A DNA stretch of 64,000 bases from an uncultured Clostridia bacterium (lineage in GTDB: Bacteria > Bacillota > Limnochordia > Darwinibacteriales > DTU012). Position 1 is the stretch's first letter. Each line of letters starts with the position of its first letter. Made by a program: the position numbers and the translations under genes. Where the stretch lies: contig FIZJ01000007.1 in assembly GCA_900019385.1 (NCBI GenBank), forward strand, positions 2,796 to 66,795, read 5' to 3'. The notes under the pieces were generated by a model that worked only from the letters and a program-made list of their open reading frames with translations, searched no databases and was not told the origin of the DNA. Below, in pieces: positions 11,016 through 54,576 of this stretch.

Positions 11016-13226
11016 ATGATGATCGAGATGGTAAAAGTGGAAGCTGGTTCCTTTAAAATGGGCGGAGGCGATCTGAAAGACAGGCCCGACGCGCTCCCGG
11101 TGCATACGGTCACCATCACCAGGGATTTCTGGATCGCCAGGGAACCGATCAAATACGAACTCTTCGCCAGGTTTTGCCGCGAAGAGCTGGGAACTGAACC
11201 CGACGCCGAAAACTTATTGGGATATGTGGTCGGGATCAGCTGGCACGACGCAGACCGGTTCTGCGCCTGGCTCAGCGCCAAGACAGGACTGCCTTACCGC
11301 CTGCCTACCGAGGCGGAATGGGAGTACTGCGCCAGAAACAGCCGGCGCTTCGGGATTGACCGGATGTGTGACATGAATATCAGAGAATGGTGTTTTGACT
11401 GGTATGACGCATATAGTCCCGAAGAGCAGGCCGATCCGGCAGGTCCTGATTCAGGCATGTTCAAGGTTGTCCGGGGCGGCTTCCTGGACAACCCGGCCAA
11501 GTTCAACGCCTACTATTTGGATGTCTGGGCCAGGGGGTCGCTGCCGCCGCATTACCGGCATTTCCCGGGAGACCCCAACGATTTCGGCCGGCACAATGTG
11601 GGCTTTAGGGTTGTGCAGGCAGAGCCGGTGCAGACCAACGGGAAAAACGTTGTCATACCCCTGTCCCTCCATGTCCGGCAGCACCGTCCCCGGACTGAGA
11701 TCACTACCGAAAAGCCCTACTTTAGAAAGCGCCGTTTGTTTCCAATCCCGCCGGATACGGCCAGTCCCGAGGCTGTCAGGGCTTTTGGGCTAAATCCGCT
11801 TCTGCGCCACCACAACCATTCACCTGGGTTCGATGTGGCGCCGAATGGCGATTTGATTGTCTCAATCTATTCGTCCTACCACGAGTATGATCCGGAAGTG
11901 GGGCTGATGGGCGCAAGGCTGCGATATGGCGCCGATGAGTGGGAAATGCCGGATATCTGGCTGAACGCTGTGGGGGTCAACGACCACGCCCCTTTGCTTT
12001 TTACCGACCGCGACGGCACAATCTATCATTTCTGGGGATGGCCCCAATTAGACAATGCCTTTCCGTTTCAGTTCGTCTACTCCAAAGACAGCGGTGCCAC
12101 CTGGAGCCCGGTCCAGTTCCCGAAGTTCGCGGATCGGGCGGAGAAAGTGGCCAGCCAGCCTATCAATACGGTGGTCCATGCCGAAGACGGCTGGTACTAT
12201 GTGCCCTGCGATGTCCAGGGCGAGTCTGCCTCGATTTTGTGGCGCTCCATAGATTTGATCAACTGGGAGGTGCCGCGGGGCAAGACTGCGGGAAGGCACA
12301 GCGCTGTGGTGGAGCTCAAGGACGGCCGGCTGCTGGCGATAGGCGGCAAAAACACCAGCATCTACGGATACATGCCGCAGGCCATCTCCACCGATAAAGG
12401 CGACAGTTGGACAGTGAGCAAGACGCCGTTTCCGGCCATGAGCTCAGGCCAGCGCCCCTGTGTGATCCGGCTGCAGAGCGGAAGACTACTTTACTGCGGT
12501 GATTTTCAGAATAAGCAGGGTAACAGGCCGCCGGGCGCCGCCGAGGATCAATGGGGTTCGTTCGTCGCCTACTCGGAAGATGAAGGCGCGACCTGGAAGA
12601 TCAAAAAGCTGTGGGGCACTCAGCACAAGAAACAGGATCCGGCTCAATTGGGCGGAGCCCATACGCTGGGCTACAGCGTATGCCGGCAGTCGCCGGACGG
12701 GCTGATCCATGTCATCACCTCCAACAACCGGCCCTGCCTGCATCTTTGCTTCAACGAAGCGTGGCTCCTGGCCGACACCGACGGCATATGCCCGAGTGAC
12801 GAGGAACTGATGCGCGAGGACACGGTGGAAATCTCCAATGTCACAACTTATCAGGAGCGCTACGCCGACGGCGGCGTCAAATGTGTCTATTCCGGCGGCA
12901 CTGCTCCCGACGGGCGCTTCCTGCTCCACGGAGAAGAAAAATGGTATTATCCGTCGGGTGAATTGATGACTGAGGCGCGGTACCAGTTCGGCAGGCGCGT
13001 AGGCGCTTACACCCACTACAGCCCGGAAGGCCGCAAGATTTGGGAGTGGGAATACCTGGATGATCATGTTTCCCTCTACAAAACTTACTACACAAATGGC
13101 GGGCTCAGGACGGTAGGGCGTTACCGAAACCGAATCGCCGAAGGGTGGGCGGAACGATATGAGCCCGATGGGAAGCTGGCGGCCCGGGCTCTGTTTGAAA
13201 ACGGGGAGATCGTCAAGGTTGAATAG
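11016..13226 (+). CDS. Multidomain protein: FGE-sulfatase (SUMF1-type) domain + BNR/sialidase-like beta-propeller + MORN-like repeats
   Basis: 736-aa ORF. N-terminal ~200 aa carry formylglycine-generating-enzyme-family motifs (WCFDWY, RVVRGGFL, NVGFRVV). The middle has Asp-box/BNR repeats (SKDSGATW, SEDEGATW). The C-terminus has YwqK/MORN-type repeats. No signal peptide. Confidence 0.6.
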   Translation: MMIEMVKVEAGSFKMGGGDLKDRPDALPVHTVTITRDFWIAREPIKYELFARFCREELGTEPDAENLLGYVVGISWHDADRFCAWLSAKTGLPYRLPTEAEWEYCARNSRRFGIDRMCDMNIREWCFDWYDAYSPEEQADPAGPDSGMFKVVRGGFLDNPAKFNAYYLDVWARGSLPPHYRHFPGDPNDFGRHNVGFRVVQAEPVQTNGKNVVIPLSLHVRQHRPRTEITTEKPYFRKRRLFPIPPDTASPEAVRAFGLNPLLRHHNHSPGFDVAPNGDLIVSIYSSYHEYDPEVGLMGARLRYGADEWEMPDIWLNAVGVNDHAPLLFTDRDGTIYHFWGWPQLDNAFPFQFVYSKDSGATWSPVQFPKFADRAEKVASQPINTVVHAEDGWYYVPCDVQGESASILWRSIDLINWEVPRGKTAGRHSAVVELKDGRLLAIGGKNTSIYGYMPQAISTDKGDSWTVSKTPFPAMSSGQRPCVIRLQSGRLLYCGDFQNKQGNRPPGAAEDQWGSFVAYSEDEGATWKIKKLWGTQHKKQDPAQLGGAHTLGYSVCRQSPDGLIHVITSNNRPCLHLCFNEAWLLADTDGICPSDEELMREDTVEISNVTTYQERYADGGVKCVYSGGTAPDGRFLLHGEEKWYYPSGELMTEARYQFGRRVGAYTHYSPEGRKIWEWEYLDDHVSLYKTYYTNGGLRTVGRYRNRIAEGWAERYEPDGKLAARALFENGEIVKVE

Positions 13227-18260: not shown

Positions 18261-18270
18261 AGGAGTGGGT

Positions 18271-18618: not shown

Positions 18619-18628
18619 GGTGCGTTTG

Positions 18629-19648: not shown

Positions 19649-19670
19649 TATTTGTTTGTGAACGGAGGAA

Positions 19671-20507
19671 GTGATACCCTTGGCTGATCTGGGGCTTTTG
19701 ACCAAGAAAGCACTGCAGACCCGCATTGCCATTCTGAAGATGATTTACCAGGCGAAAGGCGGCCACATTGGAGGGGCCTTTTCCTGCACTGATATTTTGG
19801 TGACACTTTATTATGCCGTGATGCGCATCGATCCCCACAACCCCCGCTGGGAAGGCCGGGATCGGTTCGTTTTGAGCAAAGGCCACAGTGTGGAAGGACT
19901 GTACGCGATTTTGGCTGATTTGGGGTTTTTCCCCAAAGAGGAATTGGACTCTTACCGCGGTTTTCATTCGCGCTTGATCGGCCATCCCACAAACAGAGTA
20001 CCGGGGATCGAAGTGAACACCGGCGCCCTCGGGCACGGTTTGTCAGTGGGTGTGGGCATGGCGCTGGCTGGAAAAATGGACGGCAAAGACTACAAAGTCT
20101 ATGTCCTGATGGGCGATGGGGAACTGGCGGAAGGCTCGGTTTGGGAAGCGGCCATGGCCGGCAGCCATTACAAGCTGGACAATTTGATCGGGATTGTGGA
20201 CCGCAACCGGCTGCAGATCGGCGGCAGCACCGAGGATGTGATGGCCCTTGAGGACCTGAGAGCGAAGTGGCAGGCCTTCGGTTGGGAGGTTCTGGAGTGC
20301 GGCGGCCATGATTTCCAGAACCTGGTGGAGACATTCGGCAAAATCCCGGCTGTGTCTGGAAAGCCGCATGTGGTTATCGCCAATACCGTCAAGGGCAAAG
20401 GCGTCTCGTTCATGGAGCACCAGGCTGGATGGCACCACCGGGTCCCCAATGAGGAGGAGTACGCCCAGGCGCTGCAGGAGCTGGAGCATATGATGGGAGC
20501 GGTTTAA
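19671..20507 (+). CDS. Transketolase N-terminal subunit, copy 2
   Basis: KGGHIGGAFSCTDIL and SKGHSVEGLYA motifs. Paralog of 15428-16255. Confidence 0.85.
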   Translation: MIPLADLGLLTKKALQTRIAILKMIYQAKGGHIGGAFSCTDILVTLYYAVMRIDPHNPRWEGRDRFVLSKGHSVEGLYAILADLGFFPKEELDSYRGFHSRLIGHPTNRVPGIEVNTGALGHGLSVGVGMALAGKMDGKDYKVYVLMGDGELAEGSVWEAAMAGSHYKLDNLIGIVDRNRLQIGGSTEDVMALEDLRAKWQAFGWEVLECGGHDFQNLVETFGKIPAVSGKPHVVIANTVKGKGVSFMEHQAGWHHRVPNEEEYAQALQELEHMMGAV

Positions 20508-20509
20508 GT

Positions 20510-21454
20510 ATGAAGAAGACCAATAAAATGCCATGCCGGAAAGCGTTCACAGAAACTCTCTTGGAACTGGCCCGAAAAGACAGGGACATTGTCGCCCTGA
20601 CCAGCGATGCCAGGGGTTCCGTGACTTTGGAGCAGTTTGCCAAGGAACTGCCGGAGCAGTTTGTGGAAGTGGGCATTGCCGAGCAGAACTTGGTGGGAAT
20701 TGGGGCTGGTTTGGCCGCCTGCGGCAAGAAACCGTTTGTCTGCGGCCCCGCCTGTTTCCTTTCTGCCCGCAGCCTTGAGCAGGTCAAGGTGGATGTGGCC
20801 TACAGTGATTTGAATGTGAAGATAATTGCCGTAAGCGGTGGTGTCAGCTACGGGGCTTTGGGTTCGACCCATCACGCCGTCCATGACCTGGCGGTGATGC
20901 GGGCGATTCCCAACCTGACTGTCGTGCTGCCGTGCGACGTGCATCAGACCAGGAAGCTCACGGAAGCCCTGGTTGATTACAAAGGCCCGGTTTATGTGCG
21001 CATGGGCCGGGGAGCGGTCGCCGACGTGTACTCGGAAGCTCACGTTCCTTTCGCAATCGGGCGGGCCAATGTCCTTCTCGACGGCAAGGACCTGGCAATC
21101 ATCGCCGCGGGCGAGACGGTGCGCCACGCGCTGGATGCGGGCTTGGCCTTGAAAAAACAGGGTGTAAGCGCCCGGGTGATCGACATGCACACGATCAAAC
21201 CGCTGGATCAGGAAACAGTGCTGCAGGCTGCCTGTGACACTGGAAACCTGATCACTGTTGAAGAGCACAGCGTTTACGGCGGCCTTGGATCGGCCGTGGC
21301 CGAGTTGGTGGCCCAGAATTATCCGGTGCGGATGCGGATTCTGGGCATACCGGACGAGCCTGCCGTCACCGGAGAATCATCCCAGGTGTTCAAGTATTAT
21401 CAGCTGACAGGCGACGAGATCGTCCAGGCGGCCTTGGCCATGCTGGATGTGTGA
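20510..21454 (+). CDS. Transketolase C-terminal subunit, copy 2
   Basis: …FVEVGIAEQNLVG…; paralog of 16255-17211. Confidence 0.85.
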   Translation: MKKTNKMPCRKAFTETLLELARKDRDIVALTSDARGSVTLEQFAKELPEQFVEVGIAEQNLVGIGAGLAACGKKPFVCGPACFLSARSLEQVKVDVAYSDLNVKIIAVSGGVSYGALGSTHHAVHDLAVMRAIPNLTVVLPCDVHQTRKLTEALVDYKGPVYVRMGRGAVADVYSEAHVPFAIGRANVLLDGKDLAIIAAGETVRHALDAGLALKKQGVSARVIDMHTIKPLDQETVLQAACDTGNLITVEEHSVYGGLGSAVAELVAQNYPVRMRILGIPDEPAVTGESSQVFKYYQLTGDEIVQAALAMLDV

Positions 21455-21468
21455 AAGGAGACAGAAGT

Positions 21469-23367
21469 ATGAGTTTTGAATGGCGCCGCGGGCAAAATCA
21501 GCTTTATGCCGGTGAAGAGCTCATTGGGGAACTGTGCGTTGACCTTCCGGATAAGGCAGTCATTGAAGACAGTGCCGTGGACCAGATCAAACCTGGTGTG
21601 TTCAGGATAGATCTGTCGGTTCTTGTCAAGGAACCGGTGGAGCAGTTCCGGTTGGTTTTGGAGTTCAAAGCCCATTACCAGGCCGATTGGGCTATGATTC
21701 CCGCAGTCAGCTACAACGGGAATCATTGGGGCAGGGGGAACGAACCGAAAGGTTTCACGAAGGACGGTATCCCCTGGGCTTTTTCCTACAGCCGGGCATC
21801 GGTGCCGGGAGCCACTTACTCTGAAGGTTCCCGCTGGGCTGTGGGCCTGTTCGGGGATTTGCGCGCTTCGGACGCCCCGTTTTCCTGTTCACTGCTTCCC
21901 GAGCAGGAACAGGTGGTTCACCGCCTGATCTGGCCGGAAGAAGAAAGCCCTGACACCTATTATATGAAGAACCGGTACCAGGAAGGGTTTCAGCGGCAGA
22001 TCAGCCTGGACGCGGGTGCAAGATTCAAAGCTGGCGCCTATCTGGTCGCGGCGGAGGTGCGCACACCGAAGCTGTCCTATGGTCATCTGCTGGATTTCGC
22101 CTGGGAGGTGAACTATCACCGCCAAAAGCCCTGGTATTCCCCGGAAGAGCTGTGGCGCTTAGGCCTGCACTATGCCAAGCACAGCCTGTATGTGGAAGAA
22201 GGGATTTACCGCGGTTTTTCCAAAGGGCTGCGCTGGAACGGGGCAGAATGGCGCCTCAGGCCCACCGCCAGGTACCTGGCCGGCTGGACAGGGCAGAACA
22301 TATCGTTGGCCAATTCCATGATCCACAGCTATATCATGAGCGGCAGCGAGGAAGACCTACAGATCGGCCTCAACACTTTGCGGACATGGGCTGTCCATGC
22401 CCGCTTGGACAATGGACTGATTTACTGCTTGTTTGATCCGATCCTGGACGGAGGCGCGGAGAATGCTGTCCAGGATGCCTGCAACCTTTCGGATGCGGCA
22501 GTGAACTTTTTCGAAGCCTGGGAACTCTTAGGAAAGATCGGGTTTGAAGACGAGAGGGAACTGTGCAAAGAAACAGCCTTGGGCATCTGCGGCTTTGCCC
22601 TGTCACACCAGTTTCCCGACGGCAAGTTCGGCAAGTCTTGGAACAATGCCGGCGAATGTGTCGATCCCAACGGCACCATTGGCTGTTACCTGGTCCTGCC
22701 CTTGTTGAAGGCGTACCAAGTAACTGGGGAGCGGAAGTATTTGGACGGCGCCGTGCGCGGCTGGGAGTACTATGCCGAGAGCTTCTCAAAGGACGGCTAC
22801 ACCTCGGCTGCGGCGCTTGACACATACTGTATCGACAAGGAATCGGCGATTCCTCTGTTAAAGAGCAGCATCGCGCTTTATGGACTTACCCGGGAACAAA
22901 GGTATCTTGAGATGGCTGAACTGGCTTCATATTATCTGGCGAGCTGGCAGTGGCATTACACCGCGCCGTTCCCGGAAGGCACACCGCTTTTTGAAATGGG
23001 CTACGACACCTTTGGCGGCACATCTGTCTCCGCGCAGCATCATCACCTGGATCCCTTCGCCCTGGTGTTCGTGGAAGACTGGTTCAAACTTGCGGAATAC
23101 ACCAGCCGGGATATCTGGCGGCAGCGGGCAAAGGCCGTTTGGGCCAACGCCTCCATGGGCGTGTCCGACGGCTCGTTGGTGGTCAACGGAGTGCGAAGGC
23201 CAACCGGCAGCCAGGACGAAGGCTTTTTCCACACATATTGGGGAGCGCCCAACCAAAACACGGGCGATCCTATGGGCAATGTCAGTTATTGGCTGGTGGC
23301 CTGGCCAACCGCCTTCCGGCTGCAGGTGCTGCGTCGCTTGTCCGACTGGCGGCAGCTGACAGATTAG
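21469..23367 (+). CDS. Hypothetical protein of 632 aa, possibly an (alpha/alpha)-toroid glycoside hydrolase/lyase-like enzyme
   Basis: AAAGGAGA ribosome-binding site. No signal peptide. Aromatic-rich and helix-rich composition. No motif I can assign to a known family. Embedded in the sugar operon. Confidence 0.35.
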   Translation: MSFEWRRGQNQLYAGEELIGELCVDLPDKAVIEDSAVDQIKPGVFRIDLSVLVKEPVEQFRLVLEFKAHYQADWAMIPAVSYNGNHWGRGNEPKGFTKDGIPWAFSYSRASVPGATYSEGSRWAVGLFGDLRASDAPFSCSLLPEQEQVVHRLIWPEEESPDTYYMKNRYQEGFQRQISLDAGARFKAGAYLVAAEVRTPKLSYGHLLDFAWEVNYHRQKPWYSPEELWRLGLHYAKHSLYVEEGIYRGFSKGLRWNGAEWRLRPTARYLAGWTGQNISLANSMIHSYIMSGSEEDLQIGLNTLRTWAVHARLDNGLIYCLFDPILDGGAENAVQDACNLSDAAVNFFEAWELLGKIGFEDERELCKETALGICGFALSHQFPDGKFGKSWNNAGECVDPNGTIGCYLVLPLLKAYQVTGERKYLDGAVRGWEYYAESFSKDGYTSAAALDTYCIDKESAIPLLKSSIALYGLTREQRYLEMAELASYYLASWQWHYTAPFPEGTPLFEMGYDTFGGTSVSAQHHHLDPFALVFVEDWFKLAEYTSRDIWRQRAKAVWANASMGVSDGSLVVNGVRRPTGSQDEGFFHTYWGAPNQNTGDPMGNVSYWLVAWPTAFRLQVLRRLSDWRQLTD

Positions 23368-23381
23368 GGGAGGGACGCTGG

Positions 23382-24497
23382 ATGCAGTATGCCATGAAGT
23401 ATGTCGAGGACTGGGAGGCTGTCAAAGCCCGCTTTGCGGCCTGGTGGCAGGGAAAGAATCCCGGCCGGCCGCTGATGAGAATTGTCGCCAGGCGGGAACA
23501 GCCCCTTGAAGAGCTGGAGCCCGCTTGGAAAGCGAAGACATTTGTGGACAAACATCTGGAAGTGGAGCGGAAAGTGGTCAACATGCGGAACTACTGCCGC
23601 ACCCGCCGGTTTTTCGCCGAAGCGTTCCCTTCCTTGGATTTGAATATAGGCGCCGGATCGTTCGCCGTTTATCTGGGGCTGGAACCCATTTTTGATCAGA
23701 ACACGGTCTGGTTCCCGGAATGCATCGACGACTGGGACAGCTGGGGAGAATTCCGGTTTGATCCGGACAATCACTGGTGGCAGCGGCATTATCAGGCGAT
23801 CCGGCAGGCGGTGGAGCTCGCTCAAGGGGATTTTCTAGTCAACATCCCTGATATCATCGAAAACCTGGATATTCTCGCCGCCATGCGGGGGGCTCAAAAC
23901 CTCTGCTTAGATTTGATCGACCAGCCGGATGTGATCAAGGCCCGGCTGGAGCAGCTTGACGCTCTGTATTTCCAGTACTATGACCGCTTTTATGATTTGG
24001 TCAAGACTGAGGACGGCGGCAGCAGCTACACGACTTTCAGTATTTGGGGCCCGGGACGGACGGCCAAGATTCAGTGTGATTTTTCCGCCATGATCTCCCC
24101 GGCCCATTTCCGGGAATTTGTCCTGCCGTCCCTCAGGAAACAGTGCCTCAGCCTTGACTGCTCCCTTTACCACCTGGACGGGCCCGACGCAGTCAAGCAC
24201 GTGCCGGCTTTGATGGAAATCGAGGAACTGAACGCTCTGCAGTGGACACCCGGGGCAGGGCAGCCTGACGGAGGCAGCCCTCAATGGTTCCCGATTTATG
24301 ACCAGGTGATCGCCGCCGGCAAGTCATTGTGGATTATGTTCTCCGGGAAGCAGGGCAAATTCGATGATTGGACCGAGGCGGCGGACCGGATAGTGGAGCG
24401 CTACGGCCCGGAGAAACTATACTTCATCTTTCCGGAGATGTCGGAAAAAGAAGCGGAAGCCTTGATGGCGAAAGCAGAACGGGATTGGGCGAGGTAG
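23382..24497 (+). CDS. Divergent URO-D/MtaA-like family protein
   Basis: GGGAGGGA ribosome-binding site. Local similarity to the 9824-10909 protein (CDFSAMISPAHFREFVLPSLRK vs NDFGSQRGLMVSPDAIREFVMPGTRK). The HxxG region is replaced by LYHLDGPDAV. Confidence 0.4.
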   Translation: MQYAMKYVEDWEAVKARFAAWWQGKNPGRPLMRIVARREQPLEELEPAWKAKTFVDKHLEVERKVVNMRNYCRTRRFFAEAFPSLDLNIGAGSFAVYLGLEPIFDQNTVWFPECIDDWDSWGEFRFDPDNHWWQRHYQAIRQAVELAQGDFLVNIPDIIENLDILAAMRGAQNLCLDLIDQPDVIKARLEQLDALYFQYYDRFYDLVKTEDGGSSYTTFSIWGPGRTAKIQCDFSAMISPAHFREFVLPSLRKQCLSLDCSLYHLDGPDAVKHVPALMEIEELNALQWTPGAGQPDGGSPQWFPIYDQVIAAGKSLWIMFSGKQGKFDDWTEAADRIVERYGPEKLYFIFPEMSEKEAEALMAKAERDWAR

Positions 24498-24502: not shown

Positions 24503-25822
24503 ATGAGCCTGAGTCTGATCGGTTTGATCGCTGACGACCTGACCGGTGCTATGGATGCGGGGATGCAGCTTCTCTCCAGGAGACTGGCGATCCACACCGC
24601 CTTGACGGTGGATGATGTGGAAGCTGTGATGGCTGGGGCGGATGTGGTTGTGGCCAACACTCAAAGCCGCAACATCGATCCCCACGCGGCATACAGGCAG
24701 GTTAGAACGGCACTGGACAAACTGGCAGCAGGCGGGTGCCGGGCTTGGTACAAGAAGATCGACTCGACCTTGAGAGGGAATATTGGTGCCGAGCTTAAGG
24801 CTGTCTTGGACAGCGGCGTCTTCGATTTGGTGATCACGGCGCCGGCTCTGCCTTACAATAAAAGGACGACCATCAATGGAATCCACTATGTGGACGGAGT
24901 GGAACTTGCCGAGATCGAACTGGCCAAGGATCCTTTCGCGCCCATTGCCTATTCGGAGATCGGGAGCATCATCAAGACTCAGTTTGAGGGGGAAGTCGGG
25001 CATTTGCCCCTGGACACTGTGCGCCGGGGGAGCGGGGCGCTTGCCGCGAAGGCGAAGGAGTATCTTGCTGCCGGAATCAAAGTGCTGACCGCCGACGCTG
25101 AAACAGAGCGGGATCTCAGGCAGATCGCCTCCGCCGCCGGTGTTTTGCCGTGCAGAGTTCTGTTGTGCGGTTCTGCGGGATTGTTTAGGTATCTTGATGA
25201 GGCTTACAGCCTCGCAAATCCGAGAGGAGAGGGCGAAAAGCCTAAAGTGGACAGGGAGCCTTATGCCCCGCCGGAAGGCGCGCCCGTGCTGGTCCTGTCG
25301 GGAAGCCCCGCCCAGATGTCCAAGCGGCAGATCCAGTATCTAGAGGACAGGCGGCCGGATACGGTTGTTGTCGCTGCTGACATCGCCGCCGTGCCCGAAG
25401 GGGAAGCGGCCGCCAAAACGATGGAGGTGATCAGTACGGTTATCGGCCACCTGCGGGCGGGTAAAAATGTGGCCCTGGACGCTGCCGGAACAAGCAAGGA
25501 AGCGATTCTCAGTCAGACGCGGGGCATGCGGGAGCAGCTTGACCGCTTTAGCTCGACAGTGCAGACACTGCTGCGGGACGCAGCCGCCGCTGCAGCAGCC
25601 CAAGTGCCTCTTGCTGCCTTGGTCCTTTTCGGCGGAGACACAGCAGTTGCGGTGCTGAAGCAGTTGGGGGGCCAGGGCATAGCCATCGTCAAAGAAATGG
25701 AGCCCTACATACCCTTAGGCAGATTGATCGGGGGAGCTTATGCCGGGCTGCTGGTTGTGACCAAAGCGGGCGGGTTCGGCAGTGAAGATTCTCTGCTTCG
25801 GATACTGGAAACGAGGGGATGA
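24503..25822 (+). CDS. Four-carbon acid sugar kinase family (DUF1537/DUF2090; OtnK/OiaK-like)
   Basis: N-terminal IADDLTGAMD motif typical of DUF1537 kinases. About 440 aa. Immediately upstream of a PdxA-family gene. Confidence 0.75.
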   Translation: MSLSLIGLIADDLTGAMDAGMQLLSRRLAIHTALTVDDVEAVMAGADVVVANTQSRNIDPHAAYRQVRTALDKLAAGGCRAWYKKIDSTLRGNIGAELKAVLDSGVFDLVITAPALPYNKRTTINGIHYVDGVELAEIELAKDPFAPIAYSEIGSIIKTQFEGEVGHLPLDTVRRGSGALAAKAKEYLAAGIKVLTADAETERDLRQIASAAGVLPCRVLLCGSAGLFRYLDEAYSLANPRGEGEKPKVDREPYAPPEGAPVLVLSGSPAQMSKRQIQYLEDRRPDTVVVAADIAAVPEGEAAAKTMEVISTVIGHLRAGKNVALDAAGTSKEAILSQTRGMREQLDRFSSTVQTLLRDAAAAAAAQVPLAALVLFGGDTAVAVLKQLGGQGIAIVKEMEPYIPLGRLIGGAYAGLLVVTKAGGFGSEDSLLRILETRG

Positions 25823-25829
25823 CAGCGCG

Positions 25830-26891
25830 ATGAACGAGCAATCCGTGATGGCAAAACTGATGGAGCAGGCAGCAGCCAAAGGCAGGCCGATTGTAGCTGT
25901 CTCCACCGGGGATCCTTCCGGAATCGGGCCGGAGATCTCAGTATCGGCCTTGCGGCATGAGGAGGTTTACCGAATCTGCCGCCCGTTTCTTATCGGCGAT
26001 TCAGCGGCTTTTTCCTCTTTGGATCTAAAGGGGTGGAGGCTCAATCCGGTCGAGCAGATCGGCGATATGCAGTTCCGCTTTGGAACTATCGATCTTTTAA
26101 ATATGAACCTGCTTCCAAGCGCGCCGCCGTTGGGTGTGGTCAACGCGGAATCAGGCAATGCATCGTTTCACTATGTGAAAAAAGCCATCGATCTGGCCAT
26201 GGCCAACGAGGTGGACGCCACGGTCACTGGACCGATCAGCAAAGAAGCGATCAACTTGGCTGGGCACCATTTCTCGGGGCATACAGAGATCTACGCCCAT
26301 TACACCAACAGCGAAGACTATGCCATGGTCTTGGCCCATGAGCATTTTCGGGTGATCCATGTTTCCACCCATGTGTCGCTGCGCCGGGCCTGCGATTTGG
26401 TGAAGAAAGGCCGGGTGCTGAAGGTGATTCAAATCGCAGACCAGGCCTGCCGCCGGCTGGGTATTGCCAAGCCCAGGATCGCGGTTGCAGGTCTGAATCC
26501 CCATGCAGGGGAAAATGGGCTGTTCGGGACTGAGGAGATCACAGAGATCATGCCGGCGATTGCCGAAGCCAGGGAACTGGGCATTGATGTGGATGGGCCG
26601 ATCCCTCCAGACACGGTTTTCCCGAAGCTGAACGGCAGACTGTACGACATCTGCGTCTGCATGTATCATGACCAGGGGCATATTCCCACCAAACTGCTGG
26701 GTTTCACTTGGGACCCTGCCCAAGGCAAGTGGCTTTCGGTGAGCGGTGTCAACATCACCATGGGCCTGCCGATCATCCGGGTCTCGGTCGACCACGGCAC
26801 AGCCTATGACATCGCCGGCAAGGGTGTGGCTTCTGACAGTTCGATGGTTAATGCCATTGCCTATGCTGTTCAGTTGGCCTTAAATCGATGA
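25830..26891 (+). CDS. PdxA-family NAD-dependent dehydrogenase (PdxA2-type; 4-phospho-acid-sugar dehydrogenase or oxidoisomerase)
   Basis: VSTGDPSGIGPEI, HAGENG and HDQGHIP motifs. Classic pairing with a DUF1537 kinase. Confidence 0.8.
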   Translation: MNEQSVMAKLMEQAAAKGRPIVAVSTGDPSGIGPEISVSALRHEEVYRICRPFLIGDSAAFSSLDLKGWRLNPVEQIGDMQFRFGTIDLLNMNLLPSAPPLGVVNAESGNASFHYVKKAIDLAMANEVDATVTGPISKEAINLAGHHFSGHTEIYAHYTNSEDYAMVLAHEHFRVIHVSTHVSLRRACDLVKKGRVLKVIQIADQACRRLGIAKPRIAVAGLNPHAGENGLFGTEEITEIMPAIAEARELGIDVDGPIPPDTVFPKLNGRLYDICVCMYHDQGHIPTKLLGFTWDPAQGKWLSVSGVNITMGLPIIRVSVDHGTAYDIAGKGVASDSSMVNAIAYAVQLALNR

Positions 26892-26908
26892 AGTTGGGAG
26901 ATGGTGGC

Positions 26909-27799
26909 ATGAAATTGTGCCGGGGTATCACAGCGGCGGTTGTGACTCCGTTCACCAAGAGTGAAGCAGTAAACTACAAGGAACTTCGCAGGCATGTACA
27001 GAGGATTATTGAGGCAGGGGTGCACGGGATCTTCTGCCTGGGGACGAACGGCGAGTTCTACGCCTTAAGCGAAAGAGAGAAATACCGCGTGGTGGAGACA
27101 GTGGTGGACGAAGTTAGCGGAAAGGTCCCGGTCTATGCCGGCTCGGGGGAGATCGCCACCCGGACCGTAATCAGGTTGACCAAGCGGTTCAAAAAGCTGG
27201 GTGCTGACGCTGTTTCCATTGTAACACCCTATTTTATCCACCCCACCCAGCACGAGCTGTACCATCACTACGGAAGAATCGCCGTGGAAACAGAGTTCCC
27301 TATCATTCTCTATAACATTCCCATGCGGACCAATGTCAAGTTGGAGCCGGAAACAGTGGCCAGATTGGCCGCTGGGTTTGAGAACATTATCGGAATCAAG
27401 GACTCGAGCGGCGATCTCAAGCTCACCCAGGCGTATATCGAGCAGACACCGGAACGCTTCGCTGTTATGGGAGGCAACGACGGTTTGATCCTCGATACAC
27501 TGCTTTTGGGCGGGACGGGAGCGATCGCCGCCACCGCCAACGTGATTCCGGAAATCCTGGTCAACATTTACCAGGCTTTTATGGAAGGGGATCTGGACAA
27601 AGCCAGGATGTGGCAGGACAGGGTGGCGCCGCTTAGGAAAGACTTCGCCCTGGGAACGTCCCCAGGGGTGATCAAAGTCCAGGCGAACCAGCGCGGATAT
27701 CCCGTAGGCCCCAGCCGGATGCCGATATTGTACGATGATCCGGAAGTGGTGGCCTTGATTGGAGAGAATTTGCGCCAGAATTACGGATTGGCAGACTGA
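26909..27799 (+). CDS. DapA/N-acetylneuraminate-lyase (DHDPS) family class I aldolase
   Basis: AAVVTPF, GTNGE and YNIP motifs. About 297 aa. Translationally coupled to PdxA2. Confidence 0.75.
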   Translation: MKLCRGITAAVVTPFTKSEAVNYKELRRHVQRIIEAGVHGIFCLGTNGEFYALSEREKYRVVETVVDEVSGKVPVYAGSGEIATRTVIRLTKRFKKLGADAVSIVTPYFIHPTQHELYHHYGRIAVETEFPIILYNIPMRTNVKLEPETVARLAAGFENIIGIKDSSGDLKLTQAYIEQTPERFAVMGGNDGLILDTLLLGGTGAIAATANVIPEILVNIYQAFMEGDLDKARMWQDRVAPLRKDFALGTSPGVIKVQANQRGYPVGPSRMPILYDDPEVVALIGENLRQNYGLAD

Positions 27800-33216: not shown

Positions 33217-33224
33217 GAGGCTGC

Positions 33225-33971
33225 ATGATGGTGGAGTTATTGGCTGGGCGGACAGGAATTGTCACCGGAGCATCGAGCGGTATTGGTTTTACCATCGCCA
33301 ATATGCTGGCGGAGGCAGGGGCTGTGGTCTACGGTGTCAGCCGCAGCGGCAGGCCCAAAGGGGACAGAGTGTATCATCGGCGGGTGTTCGGCGTCCAGGG
33401 TGATGTCACCGACTATGCCGCCATGGCAGAGATCGTGCGGGATATCGGTGCAAGTCGGGGCATTGATTTTCTGGTGAACAACGCCGGCATCACCGTCCGG
33501 CAGAGAGCGGAGCTGTTCAGTGACGCTGATTTCGACCGCATCCACCGAGTGAATGTCTACGCCGTTTTCAAGCTTTCCTGCCTGTGCTATCCATATCTGA
33601 AGGCGTCCAAGTTCGTGGGAAGAGTTGTCAACATTGCCTCCATGGCCGCTCACCAGGGATTTAGCGAGGTCGTCCCCTACTGTTCCAGCAAAGCCGCTGT
33701 GCTCGGACTCACCAGAGGCCTGGCTGTGGAGTGGCGCGGCGACAACGTATTGGTCAACTCTGTTTCCCCGGGCTGGTTTCCGTCGGAGCTGACCAAAGGT
33801 GTGATGGATCCGGAACGGAAAGAAAAAATCATCAATAAAATACCGCTCCGCCGTTTTGGCGATCCCGAGGCTGTGGGGGCCATGGTCCGCTTTCTGCTTT
33901 CAGATGACGCGCTGTACATTACCGGCCAGGACTTCGCGGTGGACGGCGGCGCTCTGGCCTTCGGCTTTTAG
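33225..33971 (+). CDS. Short-chain dehydrogenase/reductase (SDR) family oxidoreductase
   Basis: TGASSGIG cofactor motif, NNAG and YxxxK (YCSSK). Confidence 0.8.
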   Translation: MMVELLAGRTGIVTGASSGIGFTIANMLAEAGAVVYGVSRSGRPKGDRVYHRRVFGVQGDVTDYAAMAEIVRDIGASRGIDFLVNNAGITVRQRAELFSDADFDRIHRVNVYAVFKLSCLCYPYLKASKFVGRVVNIASMAAHQGFSEVVPYCSSKAAVLGLTRGLAVEWRGDNVLVNSVSPGWFPSELTKGVMDPERKEKIINKIPLRRFGDPEAVGAMVRFLLSDDALYITGQDFAVDGGALAFGF

Positions 33972-37131: not shown

Positions 37132-37231
37132 GTAAGCAATTTAAGAATGAAACAAACGAACTGTTAAGTAAATTGTTTAGTTGTCTGTTTGGTCAGTGGC
37201 TGTCGACAGGTTTCGCCGAGGAGGACTCTTT

Positions 37232-52779: not shown

Positions 52780-54576
52780 ATGGAGGATCCAATCCGCTAC
52801 ATCGGCTTGGAGAAGGCGGATATCCGCTTTTATGACGGAGCGCTCCGGCACGCGGTGGGAGCCAAGCACTACCAGGTGGTGCGGGCGAACCGGGAACACC
52901 CGGAGTCACAAGAAGATTACGGTTGGACGTACAACCACGCTCCGATGCTTTGTTACTGGAATGAACATTTCTGGATCGAATACCTCAGCAATCCGGTGAG
53001 CGAGCACCTGCCGCCTTCCCACACCCTGTTGACCTGGTCCCGGGATGGGGAGACCTGGTCCAAGCCAGTTGTGATCTTTCCCCAATACGCGCTTCCGGAA
53101 GGGGTCTACACCGGCCCCAAAAAAGAACTGATCAAGCCCGGCGACACCGCTGTCATGCATCAGCGCATGGGTTTTTACGTTTCCCAAGAGGGCAGGCTGT
53201 TGGTGTTGGGTTTTTACGGGGTGTCGCCTGATGTTCACACCAGCCCCAACAACGGGTACGGCATCGCCCGGGTGGTGCGGGAGGTGTACCGGGATTTCAC
53301 CTTCTCGCCGGTTTATGTGATCCGCTACAACGAATCCGGTGGGTTTAGGCCCGAGCACGTGCCGTTTCCGTTTTACACAGCAAGCAGCGATCCGGGCTTT
53401 GTCAAGGCATGCGGCGAACTGCTGGCCAACAGATTGATCGTGCGCCAATGGTGGGAAGAGCAGCGCTTTGACACTGAACTCTTCCCCCAGCCGAGCCGGC
53501 AGGCGTTTTGCTTTTACACTCTGCCCGACGGCAGGGTGGCAGGGCTGTACAAAAACGCCCTGGTGAACTTCAGTTCCGATGGAGGAAAAACCTGGAGCGA
53601 TTTTGTCCGCTGCCGCACCATCGAGACTTCCACTGGCAAGATGTGGGGAGAAAAAACCAGCGACGGCAGGTACGCTCTGGTCTACAACCCTTCCACCGAC
53701 AGCATGCACCGCTGGCCCCTGGCAGTGGCGGCCAGCGACGACGGCATCAACTACGACAACCTCTTGGCGTTAACCTTTCATGTGCCGCCGACACGGTATG
53801 CCGGATGGGCCAAAAATCTGGGGCCTCAGTATGTGCGGGGTATCTGTGAAGGTTACCCGAAACCTGATGACGGGCATTTGTGGCTCACCTACAGCATGAA
53901 CAAAGAAGATATCTGGGTGTGCAAAGTGCCTGTGCCCATCACTGGAGAGGAAATAGAGCCGGTGGATGAGGATTTCACCGATGCAAGGCTTATTAAATGG
54001 AACATCTACTCGCCCAAATGGTGCCGGGTCTATGTCTGCCCTGCAGAAAAACGGCTGGTGCTCACTGACAGTGATCCATATGATCAAGCCATTGCCGAGC
54101 GGGTGTTCGTCAAATCGGCGGGTGTCACGGTGACAGCGCGGATCATTCCCGACAGTGTCGGCCTTGCCGGGCTGTATGTCGATCTCGCCGATGCCCGGGG
54201 TTCAGTCCCGGTGAGGTTGGTGTTCAAGCACGATCAGCGCCTGTACGTCAAAGGCAACGGTGTCTACCATGATCTGGGCAGGTTTGAGCTGGGTAAAGCC
54301 TATGATGTGACCATCAAGGCCGATTGCGCCGCCAACCAGTTCACTGTGGCCGCCGCATGCGGCGGAGAGATGCTTGTGAATAAAGCGTTCATGTTCAACG
54401 CTTCCGTTCATGCGCTGGAAAGGCTGGTGTTCCACACCAAGCGGCGGGTGAACTACTATGATCTAGAGGCGAACGGCAAGGACGGTTCCATGCCGGATCT
54501 GCCCGGCGCCGGCACACGCCGGCAGGAGACCAGATTCTCGATCGCGGTGGTCAAAACCGCGGATCACCGACTCTAG
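52780..54576 (+). CDS. BNR/Asp-box (sialidase-fold) glycoside-hydrolase-like protein, cytoplasmic
   Basis: Asp-box motifs (SRDGETWS, SSDGGKTWS). Six-bladed-propeller-like composition. No signal peptide. Confidence 0.5.
   Translation: MEDPIRYIGLEKADIRFYDGALRHAVGAKHYQVVRANREHPESQEDYGWTYNHAPMLCYWNEHFWIEYLSNPVSEHLPPSHTLLTWSRDGETWSKPVVIFPQYALPEGVYTGPKKELIKPGDTAVMHQRMGFYVSQEGRLLVLGFYGVSPDVHTSPNNGYGIARVVREVYRDFTFSPVYVIRYNESGGFRPEHVPFPFYTASSDPGFVKACGELLANRLIVRQWWEEQRFDTELFPQPSRQAFCFYTLPDGRVAGLYKNALVNFSSDGGKTWSDFVRCRTIETSTGKMWGEKTSDGRYALVYNPSTDSMHRWPLAVAASDDGINYDNLLALTFHVPPTRYAGWAKNLGPQYVRGICEGYPKPDDGHLWLTYSMNKEDIWVCKVPVPITGEEIEPVDEDFTDARLIKWNIYSPKWCRVYVCPAEKRLVLTDSDPYDQAIAERVFVKSAGVTVTARIIPDSVGLAGLYVDLADARGSVPVRLVFKHDQRLYVKGNGVYHDLGRFELGKAYDVTIKADCAANQFTVAAACGGEMLVNKAFMFNASVHALERLVFHTKRRVNYYDLEANGKDGSMPDLPGAGTRRQETRFSIAVVKTADHRL

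What the first reader, a model, noticed from the sequence alone, without database searches (positions are those of the whole stretch)
24503..27799. DUF1537 kinase–PdxA2–DapA-family aldolase trio: a variant acid-sugar pathway with a class I aldolase in place of OtnC/OtnI
Seen in sequence: a four-carbon-acid-sugar-kinase-family gene (IADDLTG motif) is translationally coupled to a PdxA-family dehydrogenase and then to a DHDPS/NAL-family aldolase. Established knowledge: DUF1537 kinases plus PdxA2 act in L-threonate, D-erythronate and D-apionate-type catabolism, where 3-oxo-isoapionate kinase is DUF1537 family and apionate oxidoisomerase is PdxA family. Those pathways normally finish with a class II aldolase/decarboxylase or a RuBisCO-like protein. 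Here neither is present. A class I, DapA-like aldolase follows instead. This suggests an undescribed variant, or a different substrate such as a 2-keto-3-deoxy acid derived from pectin sugars or aceric acid.
Basis: partly seen in the sequence, partly recalled or inferred. Interest (0 to 1): 0.65.

Follow-up and report, generated by a model that had tools for sequence, protein, structure and literature searches.

The report
Likely Dha (pectin sugar-acid) breakdown genes
The three genes are real and form the core of a widespread but uncharacterised gene cassette that most likely breaks down Dha, a rare seven-carbon acid sugar of plant pectin, into pyruvate and a glycolytic intermediate.

Summary
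Window 24503-27799 holds three tightly packed + strand genes: a DUF1537 kinase, a PdxA2-type dehydrogenase and a DHDPS-family class I aldolase.

The kinase scores best against D-threonate kinase (DtnK). The dehydrogenase is closer to solved PdxA2 / D-threonate-4-phosphate dehydrogenase than to true PdxA. From my own knowledge of Zhang et al. 2016, that pair already ends in DHAP + CO2, so the aldolase replaces nothing downstream. It most likely acts upstream.

- Of 80 species-level loci holding relatives of the aldolase, 60 carry PdxA2, 54 the kinase, 63 an Fe-alcohol dehydrogenase and 31 a cytoplasmic sialidase-like hydrolase. None carries dapB.
- In close relatives the trio sits directly after BT1020/GH143-type (Dha-hydrolase) genes in rhamnogalacturonan-II loci. 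The window has such a gene at 52780-54576.
- The same cassette occurs in E. coli CFT073/Nissle, Ralstonia and Caballeronia, with plasmid-borne aldolase relatives in rhizobia.

Proposed pathway: Dha → pyruvate + D-threuronate → D-threonate → 4-phospho-D-threonate → DHAP + CO2. This rests on gene context and stereochemical reasoning, not on assays. The window lacks the Fe-ADH reductase. I found no paper describing Dha catabolism.

The parts
24503..25822 (+). DUF1537 acid-sugar kinase, DtnK-like (proposed D-threonate 4-kinase)
   Evidence: PF07005 plus PF17042. Best NCBIfam hit is D-threonate kinase at 252 bits (cut-off 450), against 3-oxo-tetronate kinase at 170 bits. Best solved relative is 4XFM. 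30% identical to the PGAP-annotated dtnK of E. coli CFT073.
25830..26891 (+). PdxA2-type NAD-dependent oxidative decarboxylase (proposed 4-phospho-D-threonate dehydrogenase, giving DHAP + CO2)
   Evidence: PF04166. Scores 297 bits to 2HI1 (PdxA2) and 279 to 6E85 (D-threonate 4-phosphate dehydrogenase), against 187 to E. coli PdxA 1PS6/1PS7. 45% identical to the CFT073 'D-threonate 4-phosphate dehydrogenase'. The GHTE, HVSTH, NPHAGE and YHDQGH motifs are kept. It carries an 11-residue insertion shared with its close relatives and with L094.
26909..27799 (+). DHDPS/NAL-family class I (Schiff-base) pyruvate aldolase, a DapA offshoot (proposed Dha aldolase). An alternative start at 26888 overlaps the PdxA2 stop.
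   Evidence: PF00701. It passes the generic dapA model (239 bits, cut-off 206), but belongs to a 92-sequence clade with an invariant N45/Y49/K56/S163 signature and F107 in 87 of 92. K161, Y133, T44 and R138 are kept. It is never next to dapB, and is next to kinase, PdxA2 and Fe-ADH in most loci.
52780..54576 (+). BT1020-type (GH143-like) sialidase-fold hydrolase, cytoplasmic; proposed Dha-releasing enzyme
   Evidence: PF24067 Beta-prop_BT_1020 at 320 bits, plus the sialidase-like CBM domain. 68% identical to the L007 gene that sits two genes upstream of the trio in other genomes. No signal peptide. BT1020 N-terminus is the DHA hydrolase GH143 (PMC13501991).
54605..56704 (+). MGH1-like (alpha/alpha)6 glycoside hydrolase, partner of the GH143-like gene
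   Evidence: PF22422. 67% identical to the L007 gene that lies directly upstream of the kinase in L007-L010 and L016.
11016..13226 (+). FGE-sulfatase-domain::BNR_2 sialidase-like protein, cytoplasmic; second candidate ulosaric/ulosonic-acid hydrolase
   Evidence: Pfam. Orthologues of 51-69% identity lie next to the kinase/PdxA2/aldolase genes in L004, L005, L016, L018, L022, L028, L035, L048, L049, L054, L055 and L058, and next to the aldolase in L059 and L087-L090.
21451..23367 (+). Uncharacterised beta-sandwich + (alpha/alpha)6 protein (no Pfam), probable glycoside hydrolase or lyase of the same operon
   Evidence: No Pfam or NCBIfam hit. AlphaFold model with pLDDT 88.6. Foldseek top hits are PL27 5NO8, GH76 and GH88. 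61-62% orthologues precede the FGE/BNR gene and the trio in L004, L005 and L014.
23379..24497 (+). URO-D/MtaA-fold protein immediately upstream of the kinase; role unknown and not a reductase
   Evidence: No Pfam hit. AlphaFold pLDDT 93.4. Foldseek top hits are the M. mazei methyltransferase 4AY7/4AY8 and uroporphyrinogen decarboxylases. 86% orthologue in the same position in L001 and L012.
33225..33971 (+). SDR oxidoreductase; weak candidate for the aldehyde reductase missing from this window
   Evidence: PF13561/PF00106. There is no Fe-ADH homologue anywhere in the window. SDRs of 30-34% identity recur beside the sialidase-like gene in L020, L025, L042, L044, L069 and L084. It could equally belong with the adjacent enolase-superfamily dehydratase (32134-33216).

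Best explanation
The trio is the core of a conserved catabolic cassette for a 3-deoxy-hept-2-ulosaric acid. [quoted passage not shown]

Proposed steps:
1. Pectic fragments are imported, and cytoplasmic sialidase-fold hydrolases release Dha. Candidates are the BT1020/GH143-like protein at 52780-54576 and the FGE::BNR protein at 11016-13226.
2. The DapA-derived class I aldolase (26909-27799) forms a Schiff base with C2 of Dha and cleaves C3-C4. The products are pyruvate and D-threuronate (2,3-dihydroxy-4-oxobutanoate).
3. An NAD(P)H-dependent aldehyde reductase converts D-threuronate to D-threonate. In most genomes this would be the linked Fe-ADH. In this window it is not linked and not identified.
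4. The DUF1537 kinase (24503-25822) phosphorylates O4 of D-threonate.
5. PdxA2 (25830-26891) oxidises C3, and the beta-keto acid loses CO2 to give DHAP.

Net reaction: Dha + ATP → pyruvate + DHAP + CO2 + ADP, redox-neutral.

Shown here: family assignments, gene order, conservation of the linkage, the active-site signature, and the link to RG-II/GH143 genes.

Inferred: every substrate, the order of steps, and the identity of the reductase.
For: 1. Kinase and dehydrogenase identity.
- The window kinase and five other cassette kinases all score best against NCBIfam D-threonate kinase. The Lonepinella copy reaches 423 bits against a cut-off of 450.
- The E. coli CFT073 copies are annotated by PGAP as dtnK and as D-threonate 4-phosphate dehydrogenase.
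- The PdxA homologue is nearer to PdxA2/6E85 than to PdxA.

2. Conserved linkage.
- In 80 species-level loci found with the aldolase alone, 60 have PdxA2, 54 the kinase, 63 an Fe-ADH, 31 a sialidase-like gene and 33 a 2-hydroxyacid dehydrogenase.
- Kinase::PdxA fusions occur in L011, L025, Ralstonia and Caballeronia.

3. Link to Dha.
- In L007-L010 the gene order is GH95 / apiosidase (before or after the block) ... [PF24067 BT1020 beta-propeller] - (alpha/alpha)6 GH - kinase - PdxA - DHDPS - GH106.
- The window has a 68%-identical BT1020-type gene.
- The BT1020 N-terminus is the RG-II DHA hydrolase GH143 (PMC13501991).

4. Logic resembling the sialic-acid (nan) system.
- The cassettes add YhcH/NanQ-family (DUF386) proteins.
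- They also add di-/tricarboxylate-type transporters: SLC13 in E. coli, TctABC, CitMHS and TAXI-TRAP. This fits a dicarboxylic ulosaric acid.

5. Aldolase chemistry.
- The clade keeps the Schiff-base K161, Y133, T44 and R138. From my own knowledge, R138 binds the distal carboxylate in DHDPS.
- It has invariant T45N, A49Y, H56K and A163S, with Y107F in 87 of 92 and D187N/S in 89 of 92.
- By hand: Dha (4,5,6-trihydroxy-2-oxoheptanedioate) is the hydroxy analogue of the DHDPS adduct (6-amino-4-hydroxy-2-oxoheptanedioate). It has the same spatial configuration at C4 and C6.
- Retro-aldol cleavage plus aldehyde reduction gives exactly D-threonate, the DtnK substrate.

6. The Fe-ADHs score against lactaldehyde, sulfoacetaldehyde and 4-hydroxybutyrate dehydrogenases, that is, small-aldehyde reductases.

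7. Host range. The cassette is seen in the plant pathogen Ralstonia and soil Caballeronia, and plasmid-borne aldolase relatives occur in Pantoea, Agrobacterium, Sinorhizobium and Rhizobium. Gut and fermenter anaerobes carry it too.

8. Not housekeeping DapA.
- No dapB lies within 10 kb in any of 91 loci.
- The E. coli copy is present in only 1048 of 5426 complete genomes and is 32% identical to E. coli DapA.
Against: - No enzyme of this cassette has been assayed with Dha, and no tool here can test substrates.
- The window and its closest relatives (L001-L016) have no Fe-ADH within 10 kb, and none exists in the 64 kb window. One step has no assigned gene in this organism.
- The window kinase and PdxA2 fall below the NCBIfam equivalog cut-offs (252 vs 450; 331 vs 583). 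Their specificity could therefore differ, for example D-erythronate or a 3-oxo acid.
- The aldolase passes the generic dapA model and keeps R138, so residual DHDPS activity cannot be excluded.
- The sialidase-like proteins are cytoplasmic, even in E. coli where the transporter is an SLC13 permease. What glycoside they would see there is unclear.
- The 638-aa neighbour did not match GH142 specifically.
- Kdo, the other ulosonic acid of RG-II, is not excluded as a second substrate of the aldolase.
- The stereochemical argument was done by hand.
- I could not read Zhang et al. 2016 to check whether this neighbourhood was already noted.
Confidence: 0.55

Rival explanations
1. The cassette architecture is the same, but the ulosonic or ulosaric acid is not Dha. 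It could be a 4-epimer, a 3-deoxy-heptulosaric acid of erythro configuration giving D-erythronate, or a bacterial glycan acid. Alternatively the aldolase could be a broad Kdo/Dha aldolase. Only the carbon-skeleton logic (pyruvate + C4 acid → DHAP + CO2) would then hold.
For: - The kinases are only 25-40% identical to one another and sit below the DtnK cut-off.
- From my own knowledge, PdxA2 accepts both 4-phospho-D-threonate and 4-phospho-D-erythronate.
- Many hosts (Megasphaera, Pasteurellaceae, E. coli) are not pectin degraders.
- Three different sialidase-like types are linked to the cassette.
Against: - Dha is the only natural 3-deoxy-heptulosaric acid I know of.
- The direct adjacency is to PF24067 BT1020-type genes inside loci with apiosidase, GH95 and GH106.
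- Kdo cleavage would give D-arabinose, which cannot feed a C4-acid kinase.
- The transporters are of carboxylate-carrying families.
Confidence: 0.2
2. The trio would be a variant L-threonate / D-erythronate / D-apionate pathway in which the class I aldolase replaces the terminal OtnC/OtnI or RuBisCO-like step.
For: - No class II aldolase, OtnI-type or RuBisCO-like gene was found among the ORFs scanned in the window.
- RG-II contains apiose.
- DUF1537 and PdxA families occur in those pathways (my own knowledge).
Against: - The kinases score DtnK > OtnK, and OiaK is absent or far weaker.
- From my own knowledge, a DtnK + PdxA2 pair needs no further enzyme to reach DHAP.
- The conserved partners (Fe-ADH, sialidase-like hydrolase, YhcH-like protein, carboxylate transporters) have no role in this model.
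- A pyruvate-Schiff-base aldolase has no obvious substrate after a 3-oxo-tetronate phosphate.
Confidence: 0.07
3. In this organism the aldolase works with the nearby enolase-superfamily dehydratase and SDR (32134-33971). It would cleave a 2-keto-3-deoxy-L-fuconate or L-galactonate type acid from RG-II fucose or galactose, while kinase + PdxA2 form an independent D-threonate module.
For: - An enolase-superfamily dehydratase, an SDR and a GH29 fucosidase lie 4-8 kb downstream in the same operon direction.
- The dehydratase and SDR are also near the trio in L013.
- No reductase for the Dha route is found in the window.
Against: - The aldolase's linkage to kinase/PdxA2 holds in 53 of 80 loci from many phyla.
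- The dehydratase and SDR are linked only in the window and L013.
- The clade keeps R138, which argues for a distal carboxylate that fuconate-type acids lack.
Confidence: 0.08
4. The DapA homologue is genuine dihydrodipicolinate synthase for lysine and peptidoglycan synthesis, and lies next to sugar-acid genes by chance.
For: - It passes TIGR00674 dapA (239 bits, cut-off 206).
- Its closest solved structures are all DHDPS.
- K161, Y133, T44 and R138 are conserved.
- Public annotation names it DapA.
Against: - Y107 of the DHDPS triad is F in 87 of 92 clade members, and T45 is N in all.
- No dapB neighbour occurs in 91 loci.
- The linkage to kinase, PdxA2 and Fe-ADH is conserved.
- The Pasteurellaceae and E. 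coli copies are only 31-32% identical to E. coli DapA, and the E. coli copy is accessory, present in 19% of genomes.
- Ralstonia annotators label it dapA4, i.e. one of several paralogues.
Confidence: 0.04

Closest known systems
D-threonate catabolism by DtnK (DUF1537) + PdxA2 (Zhang et al. 2016 PNAS, PMC4961189; Salmonella STM0162/0163). Cited from my own knowledge and via PMC10971088 and PMC9997740.
   Same: Same two families in the same order (kinase then PdxA2). The best NCBIfam and PDB matches are DtnK and D-threonate-4-phosphate dehydrogenase. The predicted end products are DHAP + CO2.
   Different: The window proteins are below the equivalog cut-offs. Here the pair is fused into a larger cassette with an aldolase, an Fe-ADH and a sialidase-like hydrolase. 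That cassette would supply D-threonate from a glycan sugar rather than take it up.
L-threonate / D-erythronate pathways with OtnK-OtnC-OtnI, and D-apionate pathways with ApnO-OiaK-RLP (Zhang 2016; Carter 2018; my own knowledge)
   Same: They use DUF1537 kinases and, for apionate, a PdxA-family enzyme. They act on plant-derived acid sugars and end at DHAP.
   Different: No OtnC, OtnI or RuBisCO-like gene is present. The kinase scores lower against OtnK, and OiaK is not among its hits. No class I aldolase is involved in those pathways.
D-glucarate/galactarate pathway GarL-GarR-GarK of E. coli (my own knowledge)
   Same: Identical logic, one carbon shorter. A 2-keto-3-deoxy-aldarate is split into pyruvate plus an acid semialdehyde. 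The semialdehyde is reduced to a hydroxy acid, which is then phosphorylated.
   Different: GarL is a class II (metal) aldolase, GarR a beta-hydroxyacid dehydrogenase and GarK a glycerate kinase, so the families are unrelated. The C3 product needs no decarboxylation.
Sialic acid (nan) utilisation: sialidase, NanT, NanA aldolase, NanQ/YhcH
   Same: Both combine a sialidase-fold hydrolase, a DHDPS/NAL-family Schiff-base aldolase that releases pyruvate from a 3-deoxy-2-ulosonic acid, a YhcH-family protein and an acid-sugar transporter in one cluster.
   Different: The aldolase is nearer to DapA than to NanA (28% identity to E. coli NanA). The non-pyruvate product would be a C4 acid aldehyde, handled by reductase, kinase and PdxA2 rather than by NanK/NanE.
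Dihydrodipicolinate synthase DapA (EC 4.3.3.7)
   Same: Same fold and Schiff-base machinery. R138 is kept. The closest solved structures are DHDPS. The proposed substrate has the same C7 2-oxo-diacid skeleton as the DHDPS adduct.
   Different: Y107F, T45N, A49Y, H56K, A163S and D187N/S. The context is catabolic and the distribution accessory. The proposed direction is cleavage, and the partner is a hydroxy rather than an amino semialdehyde.
Bacteroides thetaiotaomicron RG-II degradome (Ndeh et al. 2017; BT1020 GH143/GH142)
   Same: A BT1020-type beta-propeller gene plus GH106-like, GH29, GH2 and pectate-lyase genes lie in one locus.
   Different: This is a Gram-positive-type ABC-importer locus with cytoplasmic hydrolases. 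It also carries genes for the intracellular fate of the released acid sugar. I found no description of that fate for B. thetaiotaomicron in the papers searched.

Membership tests
DUF1537 acid-sugar kinase family | N-terminal sugar-binding domain PF07005 plus C-terminal nucleotide-binding domain PF17042 | tested here: met
   1e-57 and 4e-24, both full length.
D-threonate kinase DtnK (NCBIfam NF047819 equivalog) | Score at or above the curated cut-off of 450 bits | tested here: not met
   252 bits. It is the best-scoring model, ahead of OtnK at 170. Relatives in the cassette reach 180-423 bits, and the E. coli copy is named dtnK by PGAP.
D-threonate kinase DtnK | ATP-dependent phosphorylation of D-threonate at O4 | not testable with these tools
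   Needs an enzyme assay.
PdxA2 / D-threonate 4-phosphate dehydrogenase | PdxA fold, and closer to characterised PdxA2 than to pyridoxine PdxA | tested here: met
   PF04166 at 6e-104. 2HI1 297 bits and 6E85 279 bits, against E. coli PdxA 187 bits. Metal and His motifs are conserved.
PdxA2 / D-threonate 4-phosphate dehydrogenase | NCBIfam NF002891 cut-off of 583 bits | tested here: not met
   331 bits. The generic TIGR00557 pdxA model is passed (336 > 290) but does not separate the paralogues.
DHDPS/NAL class I aldolase superfamily | PF00701 TIM barrel with a Schiff-base lysine and the Y133/T44 relay | tested here: met
   6e-80. K161, Y133 and T44 are invariant in 92 clade members.
True dihydrodipicolinate synthase (DapA) | Complete catalytic triad Y133-T44-Y107 | tested here: not met
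   Position 107 is F in the window protein and in 87 of 92 clade members.
True dihydrodipicolinate synthase (DapA) | R138, which binds the aspartate-semialdehyde carboxylate | tested here: met
   R in 91 of 92. This is equally expected for a Dha aldolase.
True dihydrodipicolinate synthase (DapA) | Lysine-pathway genomic context, or being the sole and essential dapA of the genome | tested here: inconclusive
   No dapB lies within 10 kb in 91 loci, and the E. coli homologue is accessory. The rest of the window's own genome could not be searched for a second dapA.
OtnK/OtnC/OtnI tetronate pathway | Class II aldolase-type decarboxylase (OtnC) and an OtnI isomerase encoded with the kinase | tested here: not met
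   Neither family appears among the scanned ORFs of the window.
D-apionate pathways | OiaK-type kinase, ApnO and a RuBisCO-like protein | tested here: not met
   OiaK is not among the window kinase's hits at E <= 0.001, and no RuBisCO-like ORF was found.
RG-II utilisation locus | Presence of RG-II-specific hydrolase families, e.g. BT1020-type GH143 | tested here: met
   PF24067 at 320 bits at 52780-54576, GH106-like at 2198-5296, plus GH29, GH2, GH31 and pectate lyases. Relatives add apiosidase and GH95.

The most novel reading that the evidence does not exclude
This cassette is the missing bacterial catabolic pathway for Dha: aldolase, then a reductase, then DtnK, then PdxA2. If so, it would identify the physiological source of D-threonate for the DtnK/PdxA2 enzymes. 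It would reveal a DapA-derived 'Dha aldolase' family that is currently mis-annotated as lysine-biosynthesis DapA in many genomes. It would also assign a function to an uncharacterised island of E. coli B2 strains (CFT073, Nissle 1917) and of plant pathogens such as Ralstonia, implying cross-feeding on an RG-II-derived acid sugar in guts and on plants.
Probability: 0.5. Interest if true: 0.8.

Novelty: new variant of a known kind. Interest (0 to 1): 0.7.

Why it matters
- Rhamnogalacturonan-II is the most complex plant glycan, and its depolymerisation has been mapped. I found no description of how bacteria catabolise its acid sugar Dha.
- The proposal gives a concrete four-step route that can be tested with purchasable or easily made substrates. 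It works in tractable hosts: E. coli Nissle/CFT073 and Ralstonia carry the same cassette.
- It would give D-threonate kinase and PdxA2 a natural context.
- It flags systematic mis-annotation. This window's gene and many relatives are named 4-hydroxy-tetrahydrodipicolinate synthase and PdxA, with lysine and pyridoxine GO terms. That distorts metabolic reconstructions.
- It suggests a nutrient niche, pectin-derived Dha, shared by gut commensals, uropathogenic E. coli lineages and plant-associated bacteria.

Tried and rejected
- **Sequence search of the 638-aa and 736-aa neighbours against PDB.** No BT1020 hit.
- **AlphaFold plus Foldseek of the 638-aa protein.** It gave a generic beta-sandwich + (alpha/alpha)6 fold (PL27, GH76, GH88) and no specific GH142 match, so I do not call it a beta-L-arabinofuranosidase.
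- **The 372-aa gene just upstream of the kinase as the missing reductase.** Rejected. It has a URO-D/MtaA fold, and some sources name its homologues as corrinoid-type methyltransferases.
- **Fe-ADH in the window.** None found.
- **Reading Zhang et al. 2016.** Not held by DOI or PMC id.
- **Literature searches** for heptulosaric acid + aldolase/threonate, RG-II + Dha catabolism, GH143/BT1020, and threuronate. No paper on Dha catabolism turned up.
- **KdgD-type dehydratase/decarboxylase role for the DHDPS homologue.** Rejected on chemistry. The carboxylate of Dha is one carbon too far away.
- **Biosynthetic (Dha-forming) reading.** Rejected because the context holds transporters, hydrolases and catabolic regulators.
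- **Checking 50-52% 'DapA' hits from Symbiobacteriaceae and Thermoanaerobacterales as possible true DapA.** They proved to be the same cassette.

Full report
**1. What is at 24503-27799**

The window is a long run of + strand genes with about 56% G+C. The stated coordinates hold three ORFs.

| Gene | Coordinates | Evidence |
|---|---|---|
| DUF1537 kinase | 24503-25822, 439 aa | PF07005 + PF17042; LIGLIADDLTG present |
| PdxA-family protein | 25830-26891 | PF04166 |
| DHDPS-family protein | 26909 or 26888 to 27799 | PF00701 |

Intergenic spacing is tight. There are 5 nt before the kinase and 7 nt before PdxA, which has a GAGGGGA Shine-Dalgarno. The aldolase either overlaps the PdxA stop (ATGA) or starts 17 nt later behind GGGAG. 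The later start gives the 296-aa protein on record (P0001, 'MAG Limnochordia bacterium 4-hydroxy-tetrahydrodipicolinate synthase'). Translational coupling is plausible but not demonstrated.

**2. Family placement**

- Kinase: the best NCBIfam model is D-threonate kinase DtnK (252 bits, cut-off 450), ahead of 3-oxo-tetronate kinase (170). OiaK does not appear.
- PdxA homologue: it matches solved Salmonella PdxA2 (2HI1, 297 bits) and 'D-threonate 4-phosphate dehydrogenase' (6E85, 279 bits) far better than E. coli PdxA (187 bits). It is a catabolic PdxA2-type enzyme. The paralogue problem is noted in PMC9997740.
- Aldolase: it passes the generic dapA model (239 > 206), and all its nearest solved structures are DHDPS. 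That explains its public annotation.

**3. The trio is part of a much larger conserved cassette**

Orthologues of the aldolase (65-89% identity) sit in these arrangements:
- the same locus as the window (L001-L003);
- SBP - 636-aa no-Pfam protein - FGE::BNR_2 protein - kinase - PdxA - DHDPS (L004, L005);
- GH95 / apiosidase (before or after the block) ... [PF24067 BT1020 beta-propeller + sialidase CBM] - MGH1-like (alpha/alpha)6 GH - kinase - PdxA - DHDPS - GH106 (L007-L010).

A 51% relative sits in AraC - BNR_2 - Fe-ADH - fused kinase::PdxA - DHDPS - URO-D - ABC permeases (L011).

A scan of one genome per species with the aldolase alone returned 80 loci. Within 10 kb of each hit:
- 60 carry PdxA2, 54 the kinase and 63 an Fe-ADH;
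- 31 carry a sialidase-like gene and 33 a 2-hydroxyacid dehydrogenase;
- 53 carry both kinase and PdxA2, and 48 of those also carry the Fe-ADH;
- none of the 91 loci held then has a dapB homologue.

Even hits annotated DapA from Symbiobacteriaceae and Thermoanaerobacterales are cassette members. Their order is PrpR-type sigma-54 activator, DHDPS, kinase, PdxA, Fe-ADH, 2-hydroxyacid dehydrogenase, TctABC.

Other examples:
- Lonepinella koalarum: kinase - PdxA2 - aldolase - Fe-ADH - TAXI-TRAP - BNR_2 - YhcH family.
- Clostridium estertheticum adds a CitMHS transporter and an SDR.
- E. coli CFT073: SLC13 permease - YhcH family - sialidase family - TerC - 'dihydrodipicolinate synthase family protein' - Fe-ADH. 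This runs divergent from dtnK - 'D-threonate 4-phosphate dehydrogenase' - DeoR, between nagE and glnS.
- A 2026 paper lists that E. coli island as uncharacterised (PMC12928451).
- Ralstonia solanacearum and Caballeronia carry dapA(4) - Fe-ADH - kinase::PdxA fusion - Na+/solute symporter - sialidase family - DeoR.
- Plasmid-borne aldolase relatives are dominated by plant-associated genera: Pantoea, Ralstonia, Agrobacterium, Sinorhizobium, Rhizobium. I inspected gene context only for Ralstonia and Caballeronia.

**4. Link to RG-II and Dha**

The window is a pectin/RG-II-type locus. It holds GH106-like, Pec_lyase, pectate lyase, GH31, GH29, GH42 and GH2 genes, plus ABC importers.

- At 52780-54576 it encodes a protein with the BT1020 N-terminal beta-propeller (PF24067, 320 bits). 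An MGH1-like GH follows it.
- These two are 68% and 67% identical to the pair that directly precedes the trio in L007.
- The BT1020 N-terminus is the DHA hydrolase GH143 acting on RG-II side chain D (PMC13501991; side chain D is L-Araf-beta1,5-Dha).
- The FGE::BNR_2 protein (11016-13226) and the 638-aa protein (21451-23367) are the pair that precedes the trio in L004.
- All these hydrolase-like proteins lack signal peptides, whereas the pectate lyase after the trio has one.

**5. Mechanistic proposal**

The following chemistry is from my own knowledge and was worked out by hand.

- Dha is 4,5,6-trihydroxy-2-oxoheptanedioate, with Fischer configuration left, left, right at C4-C6.
- Retro-aldol cleavage at C3-C4 gives pyruvate plus D-threuronate.
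- Reducing the aldehyde of D-threuronate gives D-threonate (2S,3R).
- D-threonate is the substrate of DtnK, and PdxA2 converts its 4-phosphate to DHAP + CO2 (Zhang et al. 2016; cited in PMC10971088).

The core cassette therefore encodes exactly the four activities needed: aldolase, Fe-ADH-type aldehyde reductase, kinase and PdxA2. The Fe-ADHs score against lactaldehyde, sulfoacetaldehyde and 4-hydroxybutyrate dehydrogenases. The accessory genes supply uptake and release.

The logic parallels GarL-GarR-GarK for glucarate, and the nan system for sialic acid.

The choice of a DapA-derived aldolase also makes chemical sense:
- The DHDPS adduct is 6-amino-4-hydroxy-2-oxoheptanedioate, the same C7 2-oxo-diacid skeleton as Dha.
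- By my CIP analysis, the spatial configuration is the same at C4 (HTPA 4S is equivalent to Dha 4R) and at the carbon alpha to the distal carboxylate.

**6. Active-site comparison**

I aligned 92 cassette-type sequences with E. coli DapA and NanA.
- Kept: K161, Y133, T44, G186 and D188 in all 92, and R138 in 91.
- Changed in all 92: T45N, A49Y, H56K, A163S.
- Changed in most: Y107F (87 of 92) and D187N/S (89 of 92).
- Retaining R138 fits a distal carboxylate.
- Losing the triad tyrosine, and the acidic residue next to G186, fits a change from an amino to a hydroxy partner. This is inference.

**7. Not housekeeping DapA**

- There is no dapB context.
- The Pasteurellaceae and E. coli copies are 31-32% identical to E. 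coli DapA.
- The E. coli gene is present in only 1048 of 5426 complete genomes.
- I could not search the rest of this window's own genome for a second dapA.

**8. Weak points**

- The window and its closest relatives lack a linked Fe-ADH.
- The gene just upstream of the kinase is a URO-D/MtaA-fold protein, not a reductase.
- The SDR at 33225-33971 is only a weak candidate for that step.
- The window kinase and PdxA2 are below the equivalog cut-offs.
- What the cytoplasmic sialidase-like proteins cleave in hosts such as E. coli is unclear.
- No assay exists.
- Searches of the available literature found nothing on Dha catabolism or threuronate. The library is incomplete, and Zhang et al. 2016 could not be read.

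**9. Verdict**

The finding is real. The underlying intuition, an undescribed acid-sugar route tied to pectin, is supported and sharpened. The trio is most likely the Dha aldolase plus the D-threonate kinase and dehydrogenase of a widespread uncharacterised cassette. I rate it a new variant of known kinds of pathway, with high testability.

Noticed in passing
window 6427-10909 (- strand), 23379-24497, 50508-51653: A corrinoid protein (MtgC/MtaC-like), a PocR-AraC regulator and an MtaA/CmuA-like URO-D protein sit together. Two more URO-D/MtaA-fold proteins lie elsewhere in the locus. They might form a corrinoid-dependent O-demethylation system for the methyl-ether sugars of RG-II (2-O-methyl-fucose and 2-O-methyl-xylose).
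   Followed up: partly
window 13351-21454: An operon segment holds a FucI-like isomerase, an Asp/Glu-racemase-like protein, two split transketolases, a transaldolase/FSA-like protein and a GH43/32/130-like beta-propeller. It looks like a transketolase-dependent route for a rare sugar such as apiose. No equivalog-level match was found.
   Followed up: partly
window 11016-13226: An unusual fusion of a formylglycine-generating-enzyme-like domain with a BNR_2 sialidase propeller and MORN repeats. It has no signal peptide. Orthologues of 51-69% identity lie beside the kinase/PdxA2/aldolase genes in Clostridia, Lachnospiraceae and Alloprevotella.
   Followed up: partly
window 21451-23367: A well-populated protein family with no Pfam model (Paenibacillus, Cohnella and many metagenomes). 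The confident model shows a beta-sandwich plus an (alpha/alpha)6 barrel, nearest to PL27, GH76 and GH88. It may be a new CAZyme family.
   Followed up: yes
L099 (E. coli CFT073 NC_004431.1 738713-747692): The same cassette lies between nagE and glnS in CFT073. Its aldolase gene is found in 1048 of 5426 complete E. coli genomes, including Nissle 1917 and ATCC 25922. PGAP already names two of the genes dtnK and D-threonate 4-phosphate dehydrogenase, while a 2026 paper lists the island as uncharacterised.
   Followed up: partly
window 25830-26891; L001, L004, L007, L009, L094: The PdxA2 of this lineage carries an 11-residue insertion (WDPAQGKWLSVS region). It is absent from Salmonella and E. coli PdxA2 and from the other cassette copies aligned. 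Its significance is unknown.
   Followed up: partly
window 47765-50488 and 37181-42297: A 907-aa ORF has no Pfam match. A NHL/Yip1 membrane protein and a DUF5696 protein form a pair that is also conserved downstream of the trio in L001-L003. Functions are unknown.
   Followed up: no
L011, L025, L100, L101: The kinase and PdxA2 are fused into one 740-780-aa protein in several lineages, including Pelosinus, Ralstonia and Caballeronia. In Caballeronia the fusion is annotated simply as PdxA with a pyridoxine GO term.
   Followed up: partly
window 5310-6230 (- strand): A D12-class N6-adenine DNA methyltransferase gene sits on the opposite strand inside the carbohydrate locus.
   Followed up: no
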